In this document: piece by piece, positions 45,551 to 54,018 of the stretch | Numbering within the stretch: the stretch's first letter is position 1 | Layout of the letters: every line of letters begins with the position of its first letter | Assembly (NCBI GenBank): GCA_965248535.1 | Contig: CBDFJR010000002.1 | Span: forward strand, 2,112,001 to 2,176,000 | DNA: 64,000 bases | Source of the DNA: Phormidesmis sp. | GTDB lineage: Bacteria > Cyanobacteriota > Cyanobacteriia > Leptolyngbyales > Leptolyngbyaceae | Reading direction: 5' to 3' | Notes under the pieces: model-generated | What the model saw: only the letters and a program-made list of their open reading frames with translations | The model's database searches: none | Told to the model about the DNA's origin: nothing | Made by a program: the position numbers and the translations under genes

Positions 45551-47464
45551 TTAACCAAGCTGCTCGATCGCTTGCTGAAACGCTTTTGAAATCACACCTT
45601 CTGGCATGGCTTTGATGACTTCTTGCCCTTGCTGGATTAAAAACTGCCTAAAAAACCAATCCTTTTCAGCCTCTGCTAACAGCACTTGCTGAACCAATTC
45701 AGTTTGAGTATCAGGGGTGGTGGCAATCTGCTGGCTAGCGAAGTGATTTAAGAGATTTTCGGCGGCGGTTGCAGGTTGGTCATTGCCTGGATGCGTTACC
45801 AACTGGCGTACTTGACTTGCCGCTTCATCGTAGTTAATCTTCCCTGATCCTGCGAGGTTGGCGATCGTGCTTCCAGAAATCACAAAGCTATTACCAAACG
45901 GTTTTTTACTATAGTTTTCGCTGGCGGCGGCAAGGCTGCGGGTGATTCCCATCAGTTGTGAGATCTGCTGATCTTTGGCGGCAAGCTGTTCTTCTAAAAC
46001 GCCGTAGCTTCTCATTAAGTGTTGCTCAACTTCTTGCCTAGAAGCGCCTTCGCGATGGGTCACTTTCACAATCCACAAGTCGCCGCGCCGCTCAATGCCC
46101 TTTAGCTGCAAGTCGAGACCATCATCCTCTAATTCCACATTCTGAAAGGCAAAGCTGAGGGCACGCAGATTTACGCCATCTTTGAACACTAACTCAACGG
46201 CATTTTTGACTTTTTGAAACAGGTTCTCAAATTCACCGGGTTCAAAGTTGCGGTCGACGGGGTAGCGATCGCTGGGTTTGTCATGCTCATATTCTCGATA
46301 AACGTAGTCACACTGAACGTTTGTAAAACACGTCTCGCCGTTGGTGCTCCAGTCTTTGATGCAAACTCCGGTGAGATTGGCTTCGCTAAAATTTACACCC
46401 GTAACCTGCGATCGTAGTAAAATAGCGTCACGCAAGTCTGTTCCTCTTAAGTCCGCTCCATCTAGATTGGCTTCTGCCAGATTCAGTCTTTGCATCTGAG
46501 CAGATTTTAGATTTGCTCCTCGCAAGTTTGTGCGGCTAAAATCCTGTTCGTCGCTATATCCATGCGTCAATAGTTCCTGAACTTTAGGATGGTTGAGATC
46601 CAGGTATCGGTTATCGACTCTGGCACGTTCCAGTCCGGTGACACCGTTTAAGCAGGTTCGATAGAGCCGCCGTGCCCGAAAATCACAGTTAGCTAAGTGA
46701 GAATTTGAAAAGTCAATTTCGCTTAAATCTAAGTTGTAAAAGGAGGTGCCACCCCAAGAGGCAAGGGCGATCGACCAAGATTTTAAGAATTGAAGATCTC
46801 GCGCTAATTTTTGATTTGCCTTTGTAATTACGTTGCTGGCTCTAAGCAGGCAATAGCTTGTTAGAAATCCAGCTAGAATTTTCAGAACTGGAAAGTAGGG
46901 GGTGTCTCTAGGCGTACTGCCCATATAAGAGTAGGCAACCGCAGTTGATATTGAGATTGTTAAGATTAGATAAATCGTCCCGAAATGTCTTCTATTTGAC
47001 AGCGTAGAAATGAGTGACAGAGATAACCCATTAGCAACTAGGCTGAGAGAGACGACTGCTAAAGCGACGATCGCAAGCAGCAAAATTGCCCCAATCAGTT
47101 CTGTCGTTCTAAATGTTAAAACTGATGAAACTAACATCAATAAGATAAAGGAACTTGTCTTCCACAGACTGCTGCCTAAACCACGAAAAATTATTTCTGC
47201 AACCCAAATGCTGATGATGGAAACAACTACTAAAACGAGAAAGACTGATTGGTTAAAGCCTAAGATAGTACGACTGATCGTGACCGCAAAGGTACTGCCT
47301 AAAAAACCCAGAAGGCAGCCAGTTGAAATAGCAATCAGTACCACTAAGGTCACTAGCAATAATCTAAAGATTGCAGGCTGACCAAACTTAACAGATTGAA
47401 AGTTAGACTTTAGGGCGATTTGTGTGAAGCGTCTGCCAAGAATTGCCTCTGAGTTATTGTTCAC
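45551..47464 (-). CDS. Multi-pass membrane pentapeptide-repeat protein with C-terminal coiled coil, G/S/N motif and helical domain
   Basis: About six TM segments, GGTSF..LDLSEIDF, A(N/D)L repeats, CDYVY...F.PGEFE, then NSFVISGSTIANLAGSGKINYDE and a helical tail. Confidence 0.85.
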   Translation of the reverse strand: MNNNSEAILGRRFTQIALKSNFQSVKFGQPAIFRLLLVTLVVLIAISTGCLLGFLGSTFAVTISRTILGFNQSVFLVLVVVSIISIWVAEIIFRGLGSSLWKTSSFILLMLVSSVLTFRTTELIGAILLLAIVALAVVSLSLVANGLSLSLISTLSNRRHFGTIYLILTISISTAVAYSYMGSTPRDTPYFPVLKILAGFLTSYCLLRASNVITKANQKLARDLQFLKSWSIALASWGGTSFYNLDLSEIDFSNSHLANCDFRARRLYRTCLNGVTGLERARVDNRYLDLNHPKVQELLTHGYSDEQDFSRTNLRGANLKSAQMQRLNLAEANLDGADLRGTDLRDAILLRSQVTGVNFSEANLTGVCIKDWSTNGETCFTNVQCDYVYREYEHDKPSDRYPVDRNFEPGEFENLFQKVKNAVELVFKDGVNLRALSFAFQNVELEDDGLDLQLKGIERRGDLWIVKVTHREGASRQEVEQHLMRSYGVLEEQLAAKDQQISQLMGITRSLAAASENYSKKPFGNSFVISGSTIANLAGSGKINYDEAASQVRQLVTHPGNDQPATAAENLLNHFASQQIATTPDTQTELVQQVLLAEAEKDWFFRQFLIQQGQEVIKAMPEGVISKAFQQAIEQLG

Positions 47465-47493
47465 CGTAGGTTGAAAGTTATGGGGATTAACTA

Positions 47494-49401
47494 ATGGTTT
47501 CTTACAGAATACTAAAAAATAGCATACTGGGTGGAGCTGACTTTTGCAGCGTAGCGGAGGGTGGAGTCAGAGTAGTTTGCGAAAGTAACTATCCGACTGG
47601 TGAGATTAGAGACATTGAGTTGAGCGATCCGATCGGAGGTCAAGAGTTAGCAGATATTCTGAATGCTCGATCGCTGGAATCGATCAAACAAGCATCAAAA
47701 TTAGTTTACGGTGAATCTGACTTTCTGCCCTTTGCTTTTTTAGGTCATGGACTGAGAGCGGGTGCGGCAGTTTGTCGATTGGTTCGTCACTACTCGGATG
47801 ATGGAATAGACAAACTTATTGAGATGATTCAAGAGGTAAACTATAGCAAACTTGAAATTCGTGAGCTGCTGAAAACTTCAAAGATAGAGATTTTAGATGA
47901 TTTTTGGGGAACTTATGAGCAAGTATCCGATGCGTTAAAAGCAGATCAAACGATTAGAGAACAACTCAAAGAACGGTTTAAGAAAGCAATGCCGATCGCG
48001 TATGGAACAGGTTTTTTAGTCGGTCGAAATCACCTATTAACTAATCATCATGTTTTAAGCGATCCAAGTGCGGTAGGAGAGTTTACAGCACAGTTTTGCT
48101 ATGAACAAAACTCTTCGGATGAAGAGACTTTACCCTTTGAATATAAGCTCGACGCAAGTGTTTTTAAGACTGACTCAGACTTAGACTACACCTTAGTTGG
48201 CGTTCGACCCCTCAATTCTGAGACCGTCTCTAAAGACGGCATGAAATACTATCGTGATGAATCAGGTAAAAACTATTTAACCTTTCGTGAAGCAGGCAAT
48301 AATTTTGGGTGGCTACAGATGTCTGATGATTACAAAATTATCGCGCCCCCTGTATGCAAAGACGAGGTGATGTCTGAGGCTATTGGCGATTTTGCCTTAT
48401 TTAAGGAGACAATCAACCCAGAAATTCTTCAGAAGAAACTTGAAATTTCTGATTTGCTAGGAGAACCCCTCAACATCATTCAGCACCCCAAAGGACGAGA
48501 GAAAGAAATTGTTATCTACAACAATAGGGTGCAAAAAATATACCCACAATTCATTCAATATGAAACCGATGCGGAGCCTGGTTCATCAGGCAGTCCACTT
48601 TTTAATTCACAATGGCAATTAGTTGGGCTACATCACTCGGCTTTAGTTGAAGAGTTAGGAAAAGTAGCGGGTTATTTGGGCACTCGAATTCATCACATTG
48701 TTAAAGATTTGCAAAAGAGCAACGATGCAAAAACGAAAGAATTTATAGATCGGTTTGTGACAAATCCTCGAAAAGGAACTATCTATCTTCTGGCGGGCTT
48801 GAAGAGAGACGGAGTGGTCGAAAGTCCAGTTCTTGAAGCTGACCAAATGACAATTTTAGGTAATCGCATTAATAAGCTATTCAGTGGAGAATTCTCTAAA
48901 CATGGATTTGAACTTCAGCTAGTTCCTGAAGAATTTCGGCAGAATGAAGATCGAGCGATCGAGTGGATCAATCAGCAAGATTACAATGTTGGCGATGTTG
49001 CCCTCGAAATCGTGACCGACTCTATCCCTGAAAATCAAACCGTGCGAGGATCGGCGGCTTATTATTTCAAAGACAGTTTAGAACGTAAATCTCATGCTGA
49101 ACTGCTGCTGCAATCGTTGCTAAAAAGAGTTCCAGATCTGCCCGATCGCGGCACAAAATCTGATAGGGCCACCAAAGGTAGAAGATTGCCCTTCTGTCGT
49201 GATATTTTTATGCCATCACTGGTGCTGTATGTCGGATTTTTGACTAATTCGGAAGATGTGAATGTGATTAAAACTCAATCAGAAAACATTGCCCAAGGCA
49301 TTTCTGAAGGGCTGGTTCTTTGGGCTAAAAGCGTTAGTCCTCTTAATTCTGAGATTGCCCTATTTCGACCCACTTATCTACCTAGAATTGTCGAAGCATA
49401 A
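47494..49401 (+). CDS. Trypsin-like serine protease fused to a degenerate Amidase_3-like domain
   Basis: Catalytic triad LTNHHV / LDYTLV / PGSSGSP; IIQHPKG; C-terminal GDVALEI...RGSAAYY...PSLVLYVGFLTN. Start uncertain. Confidence 0.82.
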   Translation: MVSYRILKNSILGGADFCSVAEGGVRVVCESNYPTGEIRDIELSDPIGGQELADILNARSLESIKQASKLVYGESDFLPFAFLGHGLRAGAAVCRLVRHYSDDGIDKLIEMIQEVNYSKLEIRELLKTSKIEILDDFWGTYEQVSDALKADQTIREQLKERFKKAMPIAYGTGFLVGRNHLLTNHHVLSDPSAVGEFTAQFCYEQNSSDEETLPFEYKLDASVFKTDSDLDYTLVGVRPLNSETVSKDGMKYYRDESGKNYLTFREAGNNFGWLQMSDDYKIIAPPVCKDEVMSEAIGDFALFKETINPEILQKKLEISDLLGEPLNIIQHPKGREKEIVIYNNRVQKIYPQFIQYETDAEPGSSGSPLFNSQWQLVGLHHSALVEELGKVAGYLGTRIHHIVKDLQKSNDAKTKEFIDRFVTNPRKGTIYLLAGLKRDGVVESPVLEADQMTILGNRINKLFSGEFSKHGFELQLVPEEFRQNEDRAIEWINQQDYNVGDVALEIVTDSIPENQTVRGSAAYYFKDSLERKSHAELLLQSLLKRVPDLPDRGTKSDRATKGRRLPFCRDIFMPSLVLYVGFLTNSEDVNVIKTQSENIAQGISEGLVLWAKSVSPLNSEIALFRPTYLPRIVEA

Positions 49402-49416
49402 GCTTTAGAAAGGAGA

Positions 49417-50109
49417 TTACTTGGTGAGTAGAACGGGCGTTAAAAACTCTTCAATTCCTGCCATACGAATTGCAGCACACCCAAATTTGTAAGCTCTCTC
49501 AACCGATTCACCCGCCACGATCGCATCATAAAACCCCACCGAAAACTCGATCGCGGCTTTGTCTCCGATCGCTTGATTCATCCCAATCACATAAGGGATA
49601 TGTTGAGCGATCGCCGTTGCCTGAGTTTCTGAATAACAAGCATTAAGCAAAACGCAGGTGATCTGATCAGCAAACAATTCAAATAAATCTGCTAGTGCTT
49701 CGGCACTGACCAACGTCACTTCACCGATCTCATTTTCTAGAGCCAGTCCCTCAGCTCCGACTCCATGTCCACAAAAATGGACAAACTGAGGCTTGCAGTC
49801 TGATAAAGCGCGACGCACATCTCTAGGACGAACTGCCCATTTTTGTTCCAAGAGCAAGCGATCGTTCTGACCATTTCGCTGCAACCCAGCCTCAATTTCT
49901 CGCACCTCTTCACCCAGTCGTAGCTGTGAGGTGCCTTTAGGGTTTGCTGCCAAAATCAAAATCGTCGATCGTTGCGTCTGACTCTCTGCTGATTGATCGG
50001 GTGATGGAGAGTCGGTGAGATTGGGGTTAGAAACTTCTTGGTAATGAATATCGCCAGATCCAGCTAGATTCGTAATGTTGCTTCCCGATATGTTGAATGA
50101 ATTATTCAT
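49417..50109 (-). CDS. CHAT-domain (caspase-like) protein with a short N-terminal motif
   Basis: ILILAANP..T..LRL.EEVREI; His in VHFCGHG; Cys in VLLNACYS; IGM...IGD.AA..F..GFY. Confidence 0.9.
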   Translation of the reverse strand: MNNSFNISGSNITNLAGSGDIHYQEVSNPNLTDSPSPDQSAESQTQRSTILILAANPKGTSQLRLGEEVREIEAGLQRNGQNDRLLLEQKWAVRPRDVRRALSDCKPQFVHFCGHGVGAEGLALENEIGEVTLVSAEALADLFELFADQITCVLLNACYSETQATAIAQHIPYVIGMNQAIGDKAAIEFSVGFYDAIVAGESVERAYKFGCAAIRMAGIEEFLTPVLLTK

Positions 50110-50136: not shown

Positions 50137-50787
50137 CTAGACAAGATTGGGATCGATGCCGAGCGATCGTAGTCTTTCAGCTAACTGCTCTGCCCGTTCT
50201 TGGGGAGTAGGAACAAGCCGTCCATCAGCCGTAAAATAGCGAAGTTGCTCATTCTCAACGCCCAAATAAAGCTCTAGTTCCTCACTCCAACGCCAACCGT
50301 TAGAATTTGTTTCGATCGGTTGATATTGAGTTCCGGTGAAGCGAAACCCCTCAAACTCTAGTGTGTCTGGGGAAAACCAGAAATATTCTGGAGTCCGAAA
50401 GCGGTCTTGATAAAGCGTTTTCTTAAGGGTGCGGTCTATCTCGGCGGTCGAAGTTGAGAGTAGTTCAATAATCAGATTTGGATATTTGCCATCTTCTTCC
50501 CATGTCACCCAGGCGTTGCGAGGTCGCCGATCGGTTTGCTTGATTAAAAAGAAATCAGGCCCGCGAAAGTCCCGGTTTCGCAGTTGTTGACGACTGAAAT
50601 AAACAGTCAGATTTGCCCCAATAAAGAAATCGTCGCGGGTGCTCCACAAAAATTCGAGACAGGCGACCAAGAGTGCCAGTTGGGTGTAGTGTAATGAACT
50701 TTCCATTTCTGGCTCATCGCTCAAAAGTTTAGTGGCATCGGGCATTATGGCTTCTAGCTGTTGCGCGGTTATGCCTGTCATGTTCAT
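50137..50787 (-). CDS. Uma2-family (DUF820) endonuclease-like protein
   Basis: SDEPEMESSLH, FRGPDFF, PNLIIELLS.ST, TPEYFWF; start trimmed to MNMTG. Confidence 0.9.
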   Translation of the reverse strand: MNMTGITAQQLEAIMPDATKLLSDEPEMESSLHYTQLALLVACLEFLWSTRDDFFIGANLTVYFSRQQLRNRDFRGPDFFLIKQTDRRPRNAWVTWEEDGKYPNLIIELLSTSTAEIDRTLKKTLYQDRFRTPEYFWFSPDTLEFEGFRFTGTQYQPIETNSNGWRWSEELELYLGVENEQLRYFTADGRLVPTPQERAEQLAERLRSLGIDPNLV

Positions 50788-51000
50788 GGAGTTGCCTGGC
50801 GCGTTTAGTCTTATTATCCGCGATCGGTCGTAGATTACTTCAAAACTGCCGTGTGTGGTCAACAGGTAGAGACGGTTCCAAAAGCTACCATCTCCTGATT
50901 AAGAATTAATAAAAAATCCTGCTCTTGCTTTTAGGAGAGCGACTAAAGTAATAGCGAACTATCTCACGCACTGTTATTAATTGAAAAAAGGTGAATATAT

Positions 51001-51573
51001 ATGGTAGGTCAACTAGTCCCAATCGATCTAGACAAACCTTTTGCAGAACAGCAGTCAGTTAAGGAACTATTGAAGCTGCCCGAAGATAAAACTAAAAAGC
51101 TTGGATTTGATCAACTGCTAGAAATTGCAAAAGTGGCAGTCAGGAGCGAATTGGTCTCTTGTGGTTGTTCTGAAAATGCGCTAACTGGGCTGAGATTAGA
51201 ATATTTATCTCAAGCAGGAGCTGATCAACCAGAAGAAAAATACGTGCTTGAGTGGACAAAGCTCAATCAAAGCAACTCATCGATAGAGGCAGCTTCTACT
51301 GAAGAACCTCCACAACTGTCTGATAGCTTTCACACAAGACTTTTTAACAGGTTAGATGCTGAATTACCTAAAGGAGGAAACCTAACAGCAAATCGTATCA
51401 AATTCAGAGGAGCTGAAGATAGTAGTGGTATGACTTGCTGTGGCCCAGAGCCTGATACAAAGAGCTATTATAAAATAATAGATAATAATGGAGATGAAAA
51501 GTATGTTCTGAAAGATGGACAGAAATGGGAGTGCGGAAATGTAGAGTCAGGCAATCGCGATGTTATTATTTGA
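51001..51573 (+). CDS. Hypothetical protein
   Basis: 190-aa ATG ORF with AAGGTG RBS; AT-rich; 8-bp 3' overlap with the convergent gene; no family recognised. Confidence 0.6.
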   Translation: MVGQLVPIDLDKPFAEQQSVKELLKLPEDKTKKLGFDQLLEIAKVAVRSELVSCGCSENALTGLRLEYLSQAGADQPEEKYVLEWTKLNQSNSSIEAASTEEPPQLSDSFHTRLFNRLDAELPKGGNLTANRIKFRGAEDSSGMTCCGPEPDTKSYYKIIDNNGDEKYVLKDGQKWECGNVESGNRDVII

Positions 51574-53425
51574 ACATGGAAGCTAATTTTTGAGTAGTTG
51601 AAAGCAAAGCAGGCTTTTTCTGTGCAAGTGCTTCTAGGTCATCAATGACTCTGCTTTGCTCAGTTTTTTGATTGCCTAAGTATTGCTTAATCCTAATATA
51701 TGTTTGCTTCGCATCCTCTGTTTTTGCTGCTTGTAGTTGAGTCAAGCCAAGTAACCGCAGTGCGTTAATTTCTCTTGGGTTTTGCCTCAGAAACTGTTGG
51801 AGATCTAGGATCGCTTTCTGCATCTTCCCTTGCTTTAGATACATCCTTGCTCGATTGAATATGGCAATTTGTGCCGTACCAGTTTGTGTGGTTAACCGTT
51901 TTTCTATTGAATTATTGGTCACTTTATTAAAGGCTTGTTCTGCCTCGTTTAGTTGACCCAAAGCTGTGTAAAGTAAACCTTGGTCGTTCAGCGCTTCATA
52001 ATTAGTTTCGTTCTTCTCAATTGCTTTCTGATAAGCGCTGATAGCAATTTCACACTTCTCAGGATTTGGGCAGTTTGCTTGGTCGCGGACTGGAACATAC
52101 AACTTTCCTAACTCGTAGTAGGCAGTGGAAACCTTTTCTTTCGTAATCGAGTTATGCAAGTCTAGCTTCCTCAGCTCTATTTGACCCAAGACACTTTGTA
52201 AGATATTGATAGCATCCTGTGGGCGTTTCTCTGCTTTGTAAATGCTACTCAACTTGAAAGCAGCCATGACAGGAACAAGATCTGCCCAATCTTTTGTTTG
52301 AACCTCGAAGTCTACAGATTTATCGGTTGGGCTAGGGAGCTTACTAAGTGGAAGGGTTTTGACTTTGACAGAGGTGACATAGACATTTAAACTTGTTCCT
52401 GCTCTACGTCCCCAGATGATAACAGATGCATTCAACCGTGCGCTCTCTTCTTCGGCTTTGTCGAGTTGAGCAATCGGATCACTGATGTAACAAACTTTAA
52501 CATTAGGTAAAGATAGCGCCTTGAAACGTTCGCTAATATTCTCTTTTAATTGAGGATTGGTTGGATTACTGCTTGATTCGTTACTAAATTGAGCGAGGCC
52601 GATCGCTTTCTCCTGATTTTTCTCAGCCTCTCTAAAACACGCCGATTCACCCAACCCCAGTTGATCGCGAACTTGGGGAATTGATAGAGCGATCGCACCC
52701 AGTCCAAACACTCCTAATAGACTTGCCAGCACCCAAGCACGGAAACGATTAGACTTTTGACCAGATAACGCTAGAGGCGGAATTGTCCACTCAGCCAGAG
52801 CCGTCCAGGTGGTCGCAATCACCCGTGTAGGAATAATGAAGGCAATTTTGGCATCTGCACGGTTGAGATCAGCCGCCACCGCCATACCTACCACACCGCC
52901 AAGTTGCTCATCCCACACAGGCGCACCGCTATAGCCTGACTCTAATCGCCCCCCTGTTGATTTGACATCCTCAACTTGCACCCACCCTGTTCCTTGCCGT
53001 CCGCGCAAGATGCCTGTAGACCACAGCCCATCATCATGACCTACCGGAAACCCAAATGTCTGAAAAGGATGATTCCATAGATCTTCTTCTAGCAGAAGAC
53101 GCACAGGTTTTGCAGAAGCAGGTAAAGGGTCGTTAAGTTCCAGAACAGCAATATCTTCGTGACCTTGAGTAGAATTACCCCTGTCGGGAATGGGTCGCCA
53201 AAAAACGACCAGTGCTGTTAGTCGCACATCAGGAGCAACGAGGGGGAAGTCGAGAAAAATAGGTGCAGAAGGTCTTTGAGGCGCAGATTCTGAGATGCCC
53301 AAGGCTTGAGCGATGACGTGGGCACAGGTCAACACATACTTCTCATGAATGAGAAACCCTGCTCCAACAATTGCGCCAGTTGGTTTACGAATTCGGACGA
53401 TCGCGGCTTCAACAGATGCACTCAT
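51566..53425 (-). CDS. Trypsin-like protease - TM helix - TPR protein
   Basis: GAGF..VLTCAHV, EDIAVLEL, GYSGAPVWD; TM WVLASLLGVFGLGAIALSI; C-terminal TPR repeats. Confidence 0.85.
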   Translation of the reverse strand: MSASVEAAIVRIRKPTGAIVGAGFLIHEKYVLTCAHVIAQALGISESAPQRPSAPIFLDFPLVAPDVRLTALVVFWRPIPDRGNSTQGHEDIAVLELNDPLPASAKPVRLLLEEDLWNHPFQTFGFPVGHDDGLWSTGILRGRQGTGWVQVEDVKSTGGRLESGYSGAPVWDEQLGGVVGMAVAADLNRADAKIAFIIPTRVIATTWTALAEWTIPPLALSGQKSNRFRAWVLASLLGVFGLGAIALSIPQVRDQLGLGESACFREAEKNQEKAIGLAQFSNESSSNPTNPQLKENISERFKALSLPNVKVCYISDPIAQLDKAEEESARLNASVIIWGRRAGTSLNVYVTSVKVKTLPLSKLPSPTDKSVDFEVQTKDWADLVPVMAAFKLSSIYKAEKRPQDAINILQSVLGQIELRKLDLHNSITKEKVSTAYYELGKLYVPVRDQANCPNPEKCEIAISAYQKAIEKNETNYEALNDQGLLYTALGQLNEAEQAFNKVTNNSIEKRLTTQTGTAQIAIFNRARMYLKQGKMQKAILDLQQFLRQNPREINALRLLGLTQLQAAKTEDAKQTYIRIKQYLGNQKTEQSRVIDDLEALAQKKPALLSTTQKLASMFK

Positions 53426-53428
53426 TGA

Positions 53429-53758
53429 TTATGGGTGACGATTCCATTTCAAAGTGATTTCATAGTTTCCTTCAACACTGGCTGAGGCAATAATCGCGCC
53501 TGCTGCTGCGCTCATTTTCAGTCCAAACTTGACTTGAACTTCATCAGCAGGTTGGTTTAAGTTGCGAAGCTTGTTGATCAGGGTACTCGCGATCGGTCTG
53601 ATCCCGTCTAGTGCCATTTCAAAGGTCTGCTGTGACTTTTGCAAAAGCTCATCTTCTCGACCAATGCGGCGCATATTATCGGTTGCTTCTGACTCAGAAA
53701 CTTCCACTAAAACAGAGCCACCCCCTTCTAAAGGAAATTCTACTAAGTGCTTTGCCAT
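53429..53758 (-). CDS. Trypco1 (CU044_2847-family) trypsin-co-occurring protein
   Basis: MAKHLVEFPLEGGGSVLVEV...PADEVQVKFGLKMSAAAGAIIASASVEGNYEITLKW; 3 bp upstream of the trypsin gene; start trimmed to 53758. Confidence 0.85.
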   Translation of the reverse strand: MAKHLVEFPLEGGGSVLVEVSESEATDNMRRIGREDELLQKSQQTFEMALDGIRPIASTLINKLRNLNQPADEVQVKFGLKMSAAAGAIIASASVEGNYEITLKWNRHP

Positions 53759-54018
53759 GAAATGCCTTGCTGCTAGGGGACAAAAGTATGGAACGGTAAA
53801 AACGCAAAATGCGCTGATTACCTTAACGGGGTCGTTCTTCAATGAAGCGTGTGAATTTTGACTATGAGTATTTTGCCTTACGCAAAATGGCAGGCCGCTT
53901 TTTCCACTGAATATTTAATCTTTCTATCAAGGTCTCATAGGCTCTGCGAGAGGTGAAACTTTAACACTGTGAAGTAGCCTGTAAGCCAATGATAGAGGGT
54001 AAATGGCAGATTTTCCAT

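What the first reader, a model, noticed from the sequence alone, without database searches (positions are those of the whole stretch)
45551..50109. Shared 23-aa motif links a membrane pentapeptide-repeat protein to a caspase-like CHAT protease: candidate homotypic/amyloid signalling system
Seen: the pentapeptide protein carries NSFVISGSTIANLAGSGKINYDE near its C-terminus (45824-45892). The CHAT protein begins M-N-NSFNISGSNITNLAGSGDIHYQE (50035-50103). 17 of 23 residues are identical, the proteins are otherwise unrelated, and the motifs lie about 4 kb apart on the same strand. Ten of the 17 identical residues use different codons (including Ser AGC vs TCA), so the match is kept at the protein level rather than being a fresh DNA duplication. 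In CHAT the motif is joined by a S/P/Q linker to a protease with an intact His (HFCGHG) / Cys (LNAC) dyad. Known: short G/N/S-rich motifs shared by neighbouring receptor and effector genes are the hallmark of RHIM, HET-s and bacterial amyloid signalling sequences (BASS), which are usually described with NLR-type receptors. Inference: a TM-pentapeptide receptor templates polymerisation of the motif and activates the CHAT protease, in a cell-death or defence pathway with a non-NLR receptor.
Basis: partly seen in the sequence, partly recalled or inferred. Interest (0 to 1): 0.88.

Follow-up and report, generated by a model that had tools for sequence, protein, structure and literature searches.

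The report
Shared peptide couples membrane protein to proteases
A rare 23-residue peptide is shared by a conserved cyanobacterial membrane protein and by whichever caspase-like, TIR or adaptor protein is encoded beside it, so it probably acts as a plug-and-socket linking a membrane sensor to cell-death enzymes in a gene module that I could not find described.

Summary
The two motifs share 17 of 23 residues, and 10 of the 17 use different codons. They are the only two copies in the 5.0-Mb genome.

The motif, N-x-F-x-I-S/T-G-S-x-I-T-N-L-x-G-S-G-x-I-x-Y-x-E, is conserved in both protein families. It is present in 116 of 120 membrane pentapeptide homologues and 95 of 120 CHAT homologues. It is very rare overall: 68 of 1.84 billion representative proteins, none with a STAND/NLR domain.

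In 61 of 80 loci centred on the pentapeptide gene, a second motif-bearing ORF lies within 10 kb. Of 62 partner ORFs tested, the motif sits before CHAT in 35, after CHAT in 12 and on Peptidase_C14 in 10. It sits on TIR in 1 and on EAD10 in 2. It is therefore a portable coupling module.

A catalytically intact trypsin-like protease with variable cell-wall-type C-termini is transcribed divergently from the pentapeptide gene in 62 of 80 loci.

Receptor-effector coupling without an NLR is well supported. The amyloid mechanism is untested. Within-locus co-variation is weak.

The scan has noted analogous NLR-less motif pairs on other DNA, but not this family.

The parts
45551..47464 (-). P: 637-aa membrane pentapeptide-repeat protein, the constant component
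   Evidence: ORF. Pfam Pentapeptide E 2.5e-16. 124 homologues with the same architecture. AlphaFold2 mean pLDDT 87.3.
46757..47374 (-). P residues 31-236: helical multi-pass membrane region, poorly conserved in sequence
   Evidence: Seven helices (H31-64 to H222-236) in the model. Kyte-Doolittle hydrophobic stretches at residues 25-155. Few conserved columns in this region of alignment A1.
46307..46747 (-). P residues 240-386: pentapeptide-repeat beta-helix
   Evidence: Pfam hits. VIA-align Z 13.8 to alr5209 (6omx_A), model range 288-417. Regular single-residue strand pattern.
46058..46303 (-). P residues 388-469: conserved alpha/beta domain of unknown family
   Evidence: Strongly conserved columns in A1. 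Strands and helices 388-469. No PDB sequence match.
45941..46039 (-). P residues 476-508: long helix (possible coiled coil), followed by a low-confidence linker at 501-519
   Evidence: H476-508; residues 501-519 have pLDDT below 50.
45824..45892 (-). P motif NSFVISGSTIANLAGSGKINYDE (residues 525-547)
   Evidence: Present in 116 of 120 homologues. Modelled as short strands 527-530, 533-536 and 542-544 with block pLDDT 77-87.
45554..45823 (-). P residues 548-637: conserved helical tail
   Evidence: Helices 545-557, 564-577, 584-601, 603-619 and 624-636, pLDDT 76-91. Conserved in A1.
47494..49401 (+). X: 635-aa trypsin-like serine protease with a C-terminal Amidase_3 domain. It is divergent from P (29 bp between the start codons) and convergent with E.
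   Evidence: Trypsin_2 E 7.2e-21 (residues 171-379) and Amidase_3 E 1.2e-8 (residues 490-607). A homologue lies on the strand opposite to P in 62 of 80 loci. 37 of 38 intervening ORFs carry Trypsin_2. Triad H186 62/63, D231 62/63, S365 60/63.
49417..50109 (-). E: 230-aa stand-alone CHAT (caspase-fold) protease with the motif at its N-terminus
   Evidence: CHAT E 6.5e-11. Cys158 invariant and His115 at least 90% conserved in 60 homologues. AlphaFold2 mean pLDDT 80.9.
50035..50103 (-). E motif NSFNISGSNITNLAGSGDIHYQE (residues 3-25)
   Evidence: Present in 95 of the 120 best CHAT homologues. Disordered in the monomer model, pLDDT 42-45.
49969..50034 (-). E residues 26-47: S/P/Q-rich flexible linker
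   Evidence: Sequence. Mean pLDDT of the 10-residue blocks covering residues 21-40 is 45-49; low-confidence segments (pLDDT below 50) at 27-32 and 38-43.

Best explanation
The locus is a cyanobacterial cell-death or defence-type module that I could not find described. Its core is a gene pair, usually accompanied by a third gene.

P is the constant component. It has a variable multi-pass membrane region, a pentapeptide beta-helix, a conserved alpha/beta domain and a long helix. These are followed by the 23-residue motif and a helical tail.

E is the interchangeable effector. It can be CHAT or C14 caspase-fold proteases, TIR, or an EAD10 adaptor. It carries the same motif at its N-terminus, at its C-terminus or between two domains, always next to flexible S/P/Q linkers.

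Most likely the motif is a portable coupling adaptor. E's copy is disordered when free. It pairs by beta-sheet formation with the copy displayed by P, or with the motif-plus-tail unit of P. This would recruit and concentrate the effector at the membrane and switch it on by proximity.

The divergently transcribed trypsin-like protease X carries cell-wall-type C-terminal domains (amidase, PG-binding, SLH, lectin). It has no signal peptide. It is a frequent accessory, possibly a lytic executioner or a processing step.

Shown: motif identity, conservation, rarity, linkage, portability, intact catalytic residues, and the conserved gene order. Inferred: direct motif-motif binding, a cytoplasmic location for P's C-terminus, activation by proximity, a death or defence role, and any role for X.
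For: The two window motifs share 17 of 23 residues, 10 of them through different codons. They are the only two copies in the genome.

The motif is conserved in 116 of 120 P homologues and 95 of 120 CHAT homologues. The two family consensus sequences agree at 15 of the 23 positions.

Of 80 P-centred loci, 61 have a second motif ORF, 18 have one and 1 has none. The median gap is 2.2 kb.

Of 62 partner ORFs, 35 have the motif before CHAT and 12 after CHAT. Nine are C14, 1 is C14+motif+CHAT, 1 is TIR_2, 2 are EAD10 and 2 have no family.

In an unbiased sample, 9 of 401 cyanobacterial genomes carry the motif. Six of those 9 have pairs 3-7 kb apart on one contig, and all matched open frames are 729 aa or shorter.

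In the global library, 68 of 1.84 billion representatives match. They comprise 30 P-type, 4 CHAT, 2 C14, 4 TIR_2, 1 EAD10, 1 Trypsin_2, 1 spurious and 25 short proteins with no family. None has a STAND/NLR domain.

Matched rare variants occur. The same one-residue deletion in G-S-G is present in both P and E of two Microcoleus loci. S8G plus L13I is present in both P and E of the Lyngbya/Limnoraphis loci.

In the two genomes with no E motif anywhere, P is full length and X is present, but P's motif has decayed to 14 bits from the usual 40-50.

P+E pairs with intact motifs occur in genomes where no full X homologue was found (0 of 5 with full coverage). So the motif does not depend on X.

E's motif is disordered in the monomer model (pLDDT 42-45). 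P's motif is modelled as short strands with pLDDT 77-87.

The EAD coupling principle of Kaur et al. 2020 (PMC7159879, passages read) and the BASS gene pairs (bioRxiv 10.1101/2020.01.06.895854, sections 7 and 9 read) are precedents.
Against: Co-variation beyond shared ancestry is not significant. The matched variants amount to only two or three independent events. One probable counter-example exists: the CHAT protein P0026 has the deletion while P0203 does not. I infer they share a contig only from their equal 'longest contig' length.

Three of the 9 motif-bearing genomes in the sample have P alone. Some E copies are unlinked.

The topology of P is inferred, not shown. No phenotype, expression data or phage link is available. 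PADLOC has no model for P.
Confidence: 0.7

Rival explanations
1. This is the amyloid or prion-like templating version, the first reader's mechanism and a sub-case of the coupling model. Oligomerised P displays stacked motif copies, which template E's motif into a beta-arch or beta-solenoid fibril. The fibril clusters and activates the effector, as in HET-S/NWD2, RHIM and BASS.
For: The motif is 23-25 residues long. Its composition is S 15%, N 14%, I 13%, G 13%, T 10%, K 0.4% and P 0.2%. That is close to the bias the BASS paper reports: enriched in N, G, I, V and Q, and depleted in K, P and L. Hydrophobic residues alternate (F3, I5, I10, L13, I19, Y21), with Gly at the predicted turns. The gene-pair logic matches. 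CHAT and TIR are known BASS-linked effectors. E's copy is disordered when alone. A long helix that could drive oligomerisation lies just upstream of P's motif.
Against: No NLR carries the motif. The motif can be internal, and in P it is followed by a 90-residue folded tail. AlphaFold2 models P's copy as folded in the monomer (pLDDT 77-87). Q and V are not enriched (2.9% and 2.1%). No fibril, ThT or prion assay exists, and no match to the BASS1-11 profiles could be tested.
Confidence: 0.3
2. This is a cis/trans competition model and is non-homotypic. P's helical tail domain is the receptor for the motif. At rest it holds P's own motif in cis. On activation, E's motif binds in trans, or the reverse happens, so that E is held inactive until it is released.
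For: In the P model the motif strands and the five-helix tail are both confidently folded and contiguous. The tail is conserved together with the motif in P and is absent from E. One set of positions is family-specific: position 4 is F in 72 of 116 P but N in 93 of 95 E, and position 20 is E/D in P but H/Y/N in E. The hydrophobic positions 3, 5, 10, 13, 19 and 21 are shared.
Against: I could not read model coordinates, so contacts between the motif and the tail are not shown. Other motif carriers, with the motif at the extreme N- or C-terminus, have nothing resembling the tail.
Confidence: 0.2
3. This is a common third-party signal model. P and E do not touch. Both carry the same docking, cleavage or targeting peptide, which is read by another protein such as the trypsin-like protease X.
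For: Both copies are strongly conserved with little pairwise co-variation, as expected for a shared reader. X is encoded next to P in 62 of 80 loci and has a conserved N-terminal region of unknown function.
Against: In 5 genomes whose P+E loci lack X, no full-length X homologue was found: 3 had no hit and 2 had only partial hits to residues 323-392. Where E is absent but X is present, P's motif has decayed. The motif has almost no K or R (0.4% and 0.5%), which fits poorly with a classical trypsin site. Twenty-three conserved residues is long for a cleavage site.
Confidence: 0.1

Closest known systems
Bacterial amyloid signalling sequences (BASS1-10, BASS11): Bell/TIR/CHAT effector plus NLR gene pairs (Dyrka et al., bioRxiv 10.1101/2020.01.06.895854; bioRxiv 10.1101/2024.11.07.622273)
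   Same: Both involve a motif of about 25 residues, rich in G and N and prone to beta structure, shared by the products of neighbouring genes. One product is a death-type effector (CHAT and TIR are named for BASS). Both are found mainly in filamentous, multicellular bacteria including cyanobacteria.
   Different: The partner here is a membrane pentapeptide-repeat protein, not an NB-ARC/NACHT NLR. The motif lies near P's C-terminus and is followed by a folded tail. On effectors it can be N-terminal, C-terminal or internal. A trypsin-like protease is a third conserved gene. A match to the BASS profiles and amyloid formation were both untestable here.
Effector-associated domains (EAD1-11) and the EAD-coupling principle (Kaur, Burroughs, Iyer, Aravind 2020, PMC7159879)
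   Same: One copy sits on a constant core component. A second copy sits on varied effectors at their N- or C-terminus, often in the adjacent gene. It has no enzymatic features and is predicted to couple homotypically. One partner type here is an EAD10+motif protein, which ties the system into that network.
   Different: EADs are globular domains of roughly 70-100 residues, mostly alpha-helical, attached to NTPase-centred cores (MoxR-vWA, GTPase, STAND). This is a 23-residue strand motif. None of the seven ORFs scanned at 45.5-53.8 kb has an NTPase domain, and no Pfam EAD model matches P or E.
EACC1-caspase membrane-associated two-gene system (Kaur et al. 2020, 'System 4')
   Same: A membrane protein is paired with a caspase-superfamily protease in a conflict-type system of multicellular bacteria.
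   Different: EACC1 has a single transmembrane helix and is mostly actinobacterial. In that system the caspase is the constant part and is fused to variable domains. No shared peptide motif is described in the passages I read.
Fungal HET-S/NWD2 and animal RHIM signalling (recalled; mentioned in the BASS papers read)
   Same: A short motif on both receptor and effector, with activation by templated assembly.
   Different: The receptors are NLRs or kinases. The RHIM core tetrad (I/V)-Q-(I/V/L)-G, as I recall it, is absent from this consensus.

Membership tests
BASS (bacterial amyloid signalling sequence) gene pairs | Motif of about 25 residues shared by the products of adjacent or closely linked genes | tested here: met
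   61 of 80 loci have two motif ORFs, with a median gap of 2.2 kb. 6 of 9 motif-bearing genomes have pairs 3-7 kb apart.
BASS (bacterial amyloid signalling sequence) gene pairs | One carrier is an NLR-type protein (NB-ARC/NACHT plus repeats) with the motif at its N-terminus | tested here: not met
   No STAND domain was found in 62 partner ORFs or in the 57 new motif-bearing representatives scanned. The longest true carrier in the library search is 731 aa; one partner ORF at a P locus is 1005 aa (C14+motif+CHAT, L005).
BASS (bacterial amyloid signalling sequence) gene pairs | Composition bias: enriched in N, G, Q, V and I; depleted in K, P and L | tested here: inconclusive
   N 14.4%, G 12.7%, I 13.0%, K 0.4% and P 0.2% fit. 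Q 2.9% and V 2.1% are not enriched, and S and T are high.
BASS (bacterial amyloid signalling sequence) gene pairs | Match to one of the BASS1-11 profiles or grammars | not testable with these tools
   The consensus logos are figures and the profiles and grammars are supplements not held here. No paper holds the motif strings.
BASS (bacterial amyloid signalling sequence) gene pairs | Forms amyloid fibrils or behaves as a prion-forming domain | not testable with these tools
Effector-associated domains (EADs, Kaur et al. 2020) | Copies on both a core component and N- or C-terminally on diverse effectors, often in adjacent genes | tested here: met
   Further architectures (TIR+motif, CHAT-like+motif+TIR, Trypsin_2+motif) appear.
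Effector-associated domains (EADs, Kaur et al. 2020) | Small globular domain recognised by an EAD model | tested here: not met
   No EAD Pfam hit on P or E. The motif is 23 residues and is disordered in E.
Effector-associated domains (EADs, Kaur et al. 2020) | [quoted passage not shown] | tested here: inconclusive
   The permutation test is positive. The sister-pair test gives p=0.17. There are two or three matched rare variants.
RHIM | Core tetrad (I/V)-Q-(I/V/L)-G (definition recalled, not from a call) | tested here: not met
   Neither family consensus contains such a tetrad.
Pentapeptide repeat (for the motif itself) | Profile similarity of the motif to the A(D/N)LXX repeats of P | tested here: not met
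   hhalign of the motif alignment against P's repeat region gives probability 0.63% and E 0.09.
CHAT (PF12770) caspase-fold protease (for E) | Domain match with the catalytic His and Cys | tested here: met
   E 6.5e-11, 42.6 bits against a cut-off of 24. C158 invariant and H115 at least 90% conserved.
Pentapeptide repeat protein (for P) | Pfam Pentapeptide match and beta-helix fold | tested here: met
   59.3 bits against a cut-off of 20.2. Z 13.8, rmsd 3.0, 109 residues aligned to 6omx_A.

The most novel reading that the evidence does not exclude
The motif is a new family of prokaryotic amyloid or beta-solenoid signalling sequence that works without any NLR. A membrane pentapeptide-repeat protein senses envelope damage or infection. 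It nucleates polymerisation of the motif and so activates interchangeable caspase-like or TIR effectors. A signal-less trypsin-amidase acts as the lytic executioner. In effect this would be a membrane-triggered, necroptosis-like pathway of filamentous cyanobacteria.
Probability: 0.25. Interest if true: 0.85.

Novelty: new variant of a known kind. Interest (0 to 1): 0.72.

Why it matters
Signalling through a short motif shared between a receptor and its effector is so far tied to NLR receptors (fungal HET-S/NWD2, bacterial BASS) or to kinases (RHIM).

This locus has the same genomic logic with a membrane pentapeptide-repeat protein in the receptor position. It also shows natural swapping of caspase-fold, TIR and adaptor effectors on one 23-residue tag. 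That would extend motif-coupled death signalling to a non-NTPase membrane receptor.

It would also give a testable function to one family of cyanobacterial pentapeptide-repeat proteins, and to many small stand-alone CHAT proteases.

Finally, it offers a compact, experimentally tractable tag of 23 residues for asking how bacterial caspase homologues are switched on. Homologues occur in cultured strains such as Leptolyngbya boryana, Nostoc and Calothrix (record names).

Tried and rejected

2. I tested whether the motif is one coil of a pentapeptide beta-helix. hhalign gives probability 0.63%, so I rejected this.

3. I tested whether the similarity between P and its partner extends beyond the motif. 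BLAST of five P/E pairs shows similarity confined to the motif plus about 7 residues.

4. PADLOC has no model for P; there are only generic CHAT and protease hits.

5. Neither the PDB sequence search of a natural C-terminal P fragment (best E 0.25) nor the ESM Atlas search of P residues 376-637 (only pentapeptide clusters, score 0.85) identified a family for the conserved alpha/beta domain or the tail.

6. The VIA-align wide search of the whole P model returned only pentapeptide proteins and generic helical matches. The C-terminal part was barely tested.

7. A full-text search for five fragments of the motif found no relevant paper; there was one unrelated hit. The BASS consensus sequences are figures, so identity with BASS7-10 cannot be excluded.

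8. No RNA holder is listed for the locus.

9. Earlier-findings look-ups by sequence and by place gave nothing for this family.

10. Chance or low complexity as an explanation is rejected.
Full report
OBSERVATION

Window 45824-45892(-) gives NSFVISGSTIANLAGSGKINYDE. This is residues 525-547 of a 637-aa ORF at 45551-47464(-). Window 50035-50103(-) gives NSFNISGSNITNLAGSGDIHYQE. This is residues 3-25 of a 230-aa ORF at 49417-50109(-).

Seventeen of 23 residues are identical. Seven of those use the same codon and ten a different one. Nucleotide identity is 44 of 69.

Pfam calls the long ORF a pentapeptide-repeat protein (E 2.5e-16) and the short one a CHAT protease (E 6.5e-11). Nothing in Pfam or NCBIfam covers the motif.

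A fuzzy search allowing ten substitutions, run over 57,564 six-frame open segments of the whole 5.03-Mb genome, finds only these two copies. The match is therefore real and not a low-complexity accident.

THE MOTIF IS A CONSERVED FEATURE OF BOTH FAMILIES

The CHAT protein has 3,706 homologues at E<=0.001. Of the best 120, 95 carry the motif. It usually sits 10-20 residues from the N-terminus. In some it lies behind a longer N-terminal extension.

The C-terminal 238 residues of the pentapeptide protein find 124 proteins with the same architecture. Of the 120 listed, 116 carry the motif, or 117 with a looser pattern.

The shared consensus is N-x-F-x-I-[ST]-G-S-x-I-T-N-L-x-G-S-G-x-I-x-Y-x-E, usually followed by Ala. 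Two positions are family-specific:
- Position 4 is Phe in 72 of 116 pentapeptide proteins but Asn in 93 of 95 CHAT proteins.
- Position 20 is Glu/Asp in the pentapeptide proteins but His/Tyr/Asn in the CHAT proteins.

LINKAGE AND PORTABILITY

A scan of one genome per species returned 80 loci that encode a relative of the pentapeptide protein, called P below. A motif HMM finds two motif-bearing ORFs in 61 of these loci, one in 18 and none in 1. The median gap between the two ORFs is 2.2 kb.

I scanned 62 partner ORFs, called E below, against Pfam:

| Partner architecture | Count |
|---|---|
| Motif before CHAT | 35 |
| Motif after CHAT | 12 |
| Peptidase_C14 with the motif after the caspase domain | 9 |
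| C14 + motif + CHAT in one protein | 1 |
| Motif + TIR_2 | 1 |
| EAD10 + motif (128 aa) | 2 |
| No family | 2 |

An unbiased profile search of 1.84 billion representative proteins found only 68 at E<=0.001:

| Type | Count |
|---|---|
| P-type pentapeptide | 30 |
| CHAT | 4 |
| C14 | 2 |
| TIR_2 | 4 |
| EAD10 | 1 |
| Trypsin_2 + motif + coiled coil | 1 |
| Spurious repeat protein | 1 |
| Short sequences with no family (several are P fragments) | 25 |

None has a STAND/NLR domain, and no true hit exceeds 731 aa. The sequences seen show the motif at either terminus or between two domains.

In an even sample of 401 cyanobacterial genomes, 9 carry the motif. Six of these have a P-type and an E-type copy 3-7 kb apart on one contig. 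Three have P alone.

Record titles of the 80 loci are almost all filamentous genera, including Nostoc, Calothrix, Scytonema, Fischerella, Microcoleus, Lyngbya, Phormidesmis and Leptolyngbya.

So the motif behaves as a rare, portable tag. It joins one constant protein to interchangeable death-type effectors.

Between P and E in the window lies a 635-aa ORF on the other strand (47494-49401). It has Trypsin_2 and Amidase_3 domains. Its start codon is 29 bp from P's.

The same arrangement recurs. Thirty-seven of 38 intervening ORFs tested carry Trypsin_2. A homologue of the window protease, always on the strand opposite to P and abutting its 5' end, is found in 62 of 80 loci.

Key properties of this protease, called X below:
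- Its catalytic triad is conserved: His186 in 62 of 63, Asp231 in 62 of 63 and Ser365 in 60 of 63.
- An N-terminal region holds conserved columns, including D-F-L-P at 76-79, F-L at 82-83 and A-V-C-R at 92-95.
- Only 1 of 63 has a hydrophobic N-terminal segment.
- The C-terminus varies: Amidase_3, PG_binding_1, Laminin_G_3, WD40, SLH, GHL10 or nothing.

X is an accessory rather than essential to the motif. In five genomes whose P+E loci lack X, no full-length X homologue was found. Three had no hit and two had only partial hits to the Ser region.

DOES THE MOTIF CO-VARY WITHIN LOCI?

Only weakly. Over 57 unique P/E pairs, in-locus identity averages 13.07 of 23. Shuffled partners give 12.61 +/- 0.09, and 0 of 10,000 shuffles reach the observed value. 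That control ignores relatedness.

I therefore ran a sister-pair test on 28 nearest-neighbour locus pairs. It gives 7 positive, 3 negative and 18 ties (p=0.17).

What remains are matched rare variants:
- In the two Microcoleus loci, both P and E have lost one residue of G-S-G and both begin with Q/K instead of N.
- In the two Lyngbya/Limnoraphis loci, both P and E have Gly8 and Ile13.
- A further matched deletion (P0087 with P0221) and one mismatch (P0026 with P0203) rest only on equal 'longest contig' lengths.

A more telling natural experiment concerns two related genomes with no E motif anywhere. P there is full length and X is present, yet P's motif has decayed to 14 bits from the usual 40-50. 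This counts as one lineage.

STRUCTURE

AlphaFold2 with 60 homologues folds the CHAT domain well (mean pLDDT 80.9). Residues 1-45 are left disordered, with pLDDT 42-49.

With 68 homologues, P is modelled with mean pLDDT 87.3. The model contains, in order:
- seven helices at residues 31-236;
- the beta-helix at 240-386;
- an alpha/beta domain at 388-469;
- a long helix at 476-508;
- a low-confidence linker at 501-519;
- the motif as short strands at 527-530, 533-536 and 542-544 (block pLDDT 77-87);
- a five-helix tail.

The beta-helix matches solved pentapeptide proteins: Z 13.8, rmsd 3.0 and 109 residues aligned to 6omx_A.

I could not read coordinates, so I do not know what the motif strands pack against.

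The strand-turn-strand-turn-strand layout, with Gly at the turns and hydrophobic residues at positions 3, 5, 10, 13, 19 and 21, is compatible with two readings. One is a beta-arch rung. The other is an ordinary small sheet.

The motif is not detectably a pentapeptide coil (hhalign probability 0.63%).

INTERPRETATION

The best-supported reading (confidence about 0.7) is that the motif is a coupling adaptor. Through it P recruits whichever effector carries the tag. This follows the logic proposed for EADs and for amyloid signalling motifs (PMC7159879, passages read; bioRxiv 10.1101/2020.01.06.895854, sections 7 and 9 and passages read; bioRxiv 10.1101/2024.11.07.622273, passages read).

The presence of EAD10+motif adaptor proteins links this module to that wider network.

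Three questions stay open:
- whether assembly is amyloid-like (about 0.3);
- whether it is a 1:1 sheet pairing or a cis/trans exchange on P's tail (about 0.2);
- whether a third-party reader is involved (about 0.1, weakened).

P's cytoplasmic C-terminus is inferred. Four basic residues precede the first helix, and E lacks a signal peptide. The death or defence role and any role for X are also inferences.

X has cell-wall-type domains without a signal peptide. This recalls a lysin that needs membrane damage to reach its substrate. That resemblance is a lead only.

NOVELTY

The design principle is known. This motif, the P family as its carrier, the absence of an NTPase and the three-gene arrangement are not described in anything I could search:
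- no Pfam, NCBIfam or PADLOC model covers the motif, and PADLOC has no model for P;
- no relevant paper holds the motif fragments;
- the relevant passages of the two eLife papers and the BASS papers do not mention such a system.

Identity with one of the cyanobacterial BASS families cannot be excluded, because their consensus sequences are only in figures and their supplements are closed.

Earlier notes of this scan report analogous NLR-less, motif-coupled membrane/CHAT pairs in other genomes. One of those was later partly overturned. None concerns this family.

Noticed in passing
window 51566-53842 (-): A 619-aa Trypsin_2 protein with a hydrophobic segment and TPR repeats is followed by a 137-aa Trypsin-co-occurring domain 1 (Trypco1, E 4e-27) protein. 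This is the trypsin-Trypco pairing described by Kaur et al. 2020. It lies 1.5 kb from the CHAT gene, so the region looks like a small conflict-system island.
   Followed up: partly
window 50137-50862 (-) and 51001-51573 (+): A Uma2-family (putative restriction endonuclease-like) gene lies 27 bp upstream of the CHAT gene on the same strand. Beyond it is a 190-aa ORF with no Pfam, NCBIfam or PADLOC match.
   Followed up: no
window 47465-47493: Only 29 bp separate the divergent start codons of P (GTG at 47464) and the trypsin-amidase gene (ATG at 47494). The two promoters must therefore overlap coding sequence, or one start is mis-called. The same head-to-head arrangement recurs in 62 of 80 loci.
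   Followed up: partly
proteins P0024, P0047, P0087 and relatives: Some motif-bearing CHAT homologues carry a G/N/Q-rich stretch (…QAIGQMSGGTAMGNVQG…) directly upstream of the motif. Some also have a roughly 100-residue N-terminal helical domain that starts with a hydrophobic helix. These could be a second signalling motif and a membrane-targeting module.
   Followed up: no
loci L014, L016, L017, L021, L076 and protein P0294: C14-type and one Trypsin_2-type motif carriers share a second module after the motif. It is an acidic coiled-coil tail (…LELLEEYEQQE…) that is absent from P and from the CHAT carriers.
   Followed up: no
window 47494-47988 (X residues 1-165) and 62 related loci: The trypsin-like proteases next to P share an N-terminal region with conserved columns (D-F-L-P at residues 76-79, F-L at 82-83, A-V-C-R at 92-95) that matches no Pfam family. 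Its partner or function is unknown.
   Followed up: partly
window 48805-49350 (X residues 438-619): The amidase part of X matches the NCBIfam model for the hormogonium tapered-terminus morphoprotein TftA at E 3e-42. That is 145 bits, well below the 500-bit cut-off, so it is a related amidase domain and not TftA itself.
   Followed up: no
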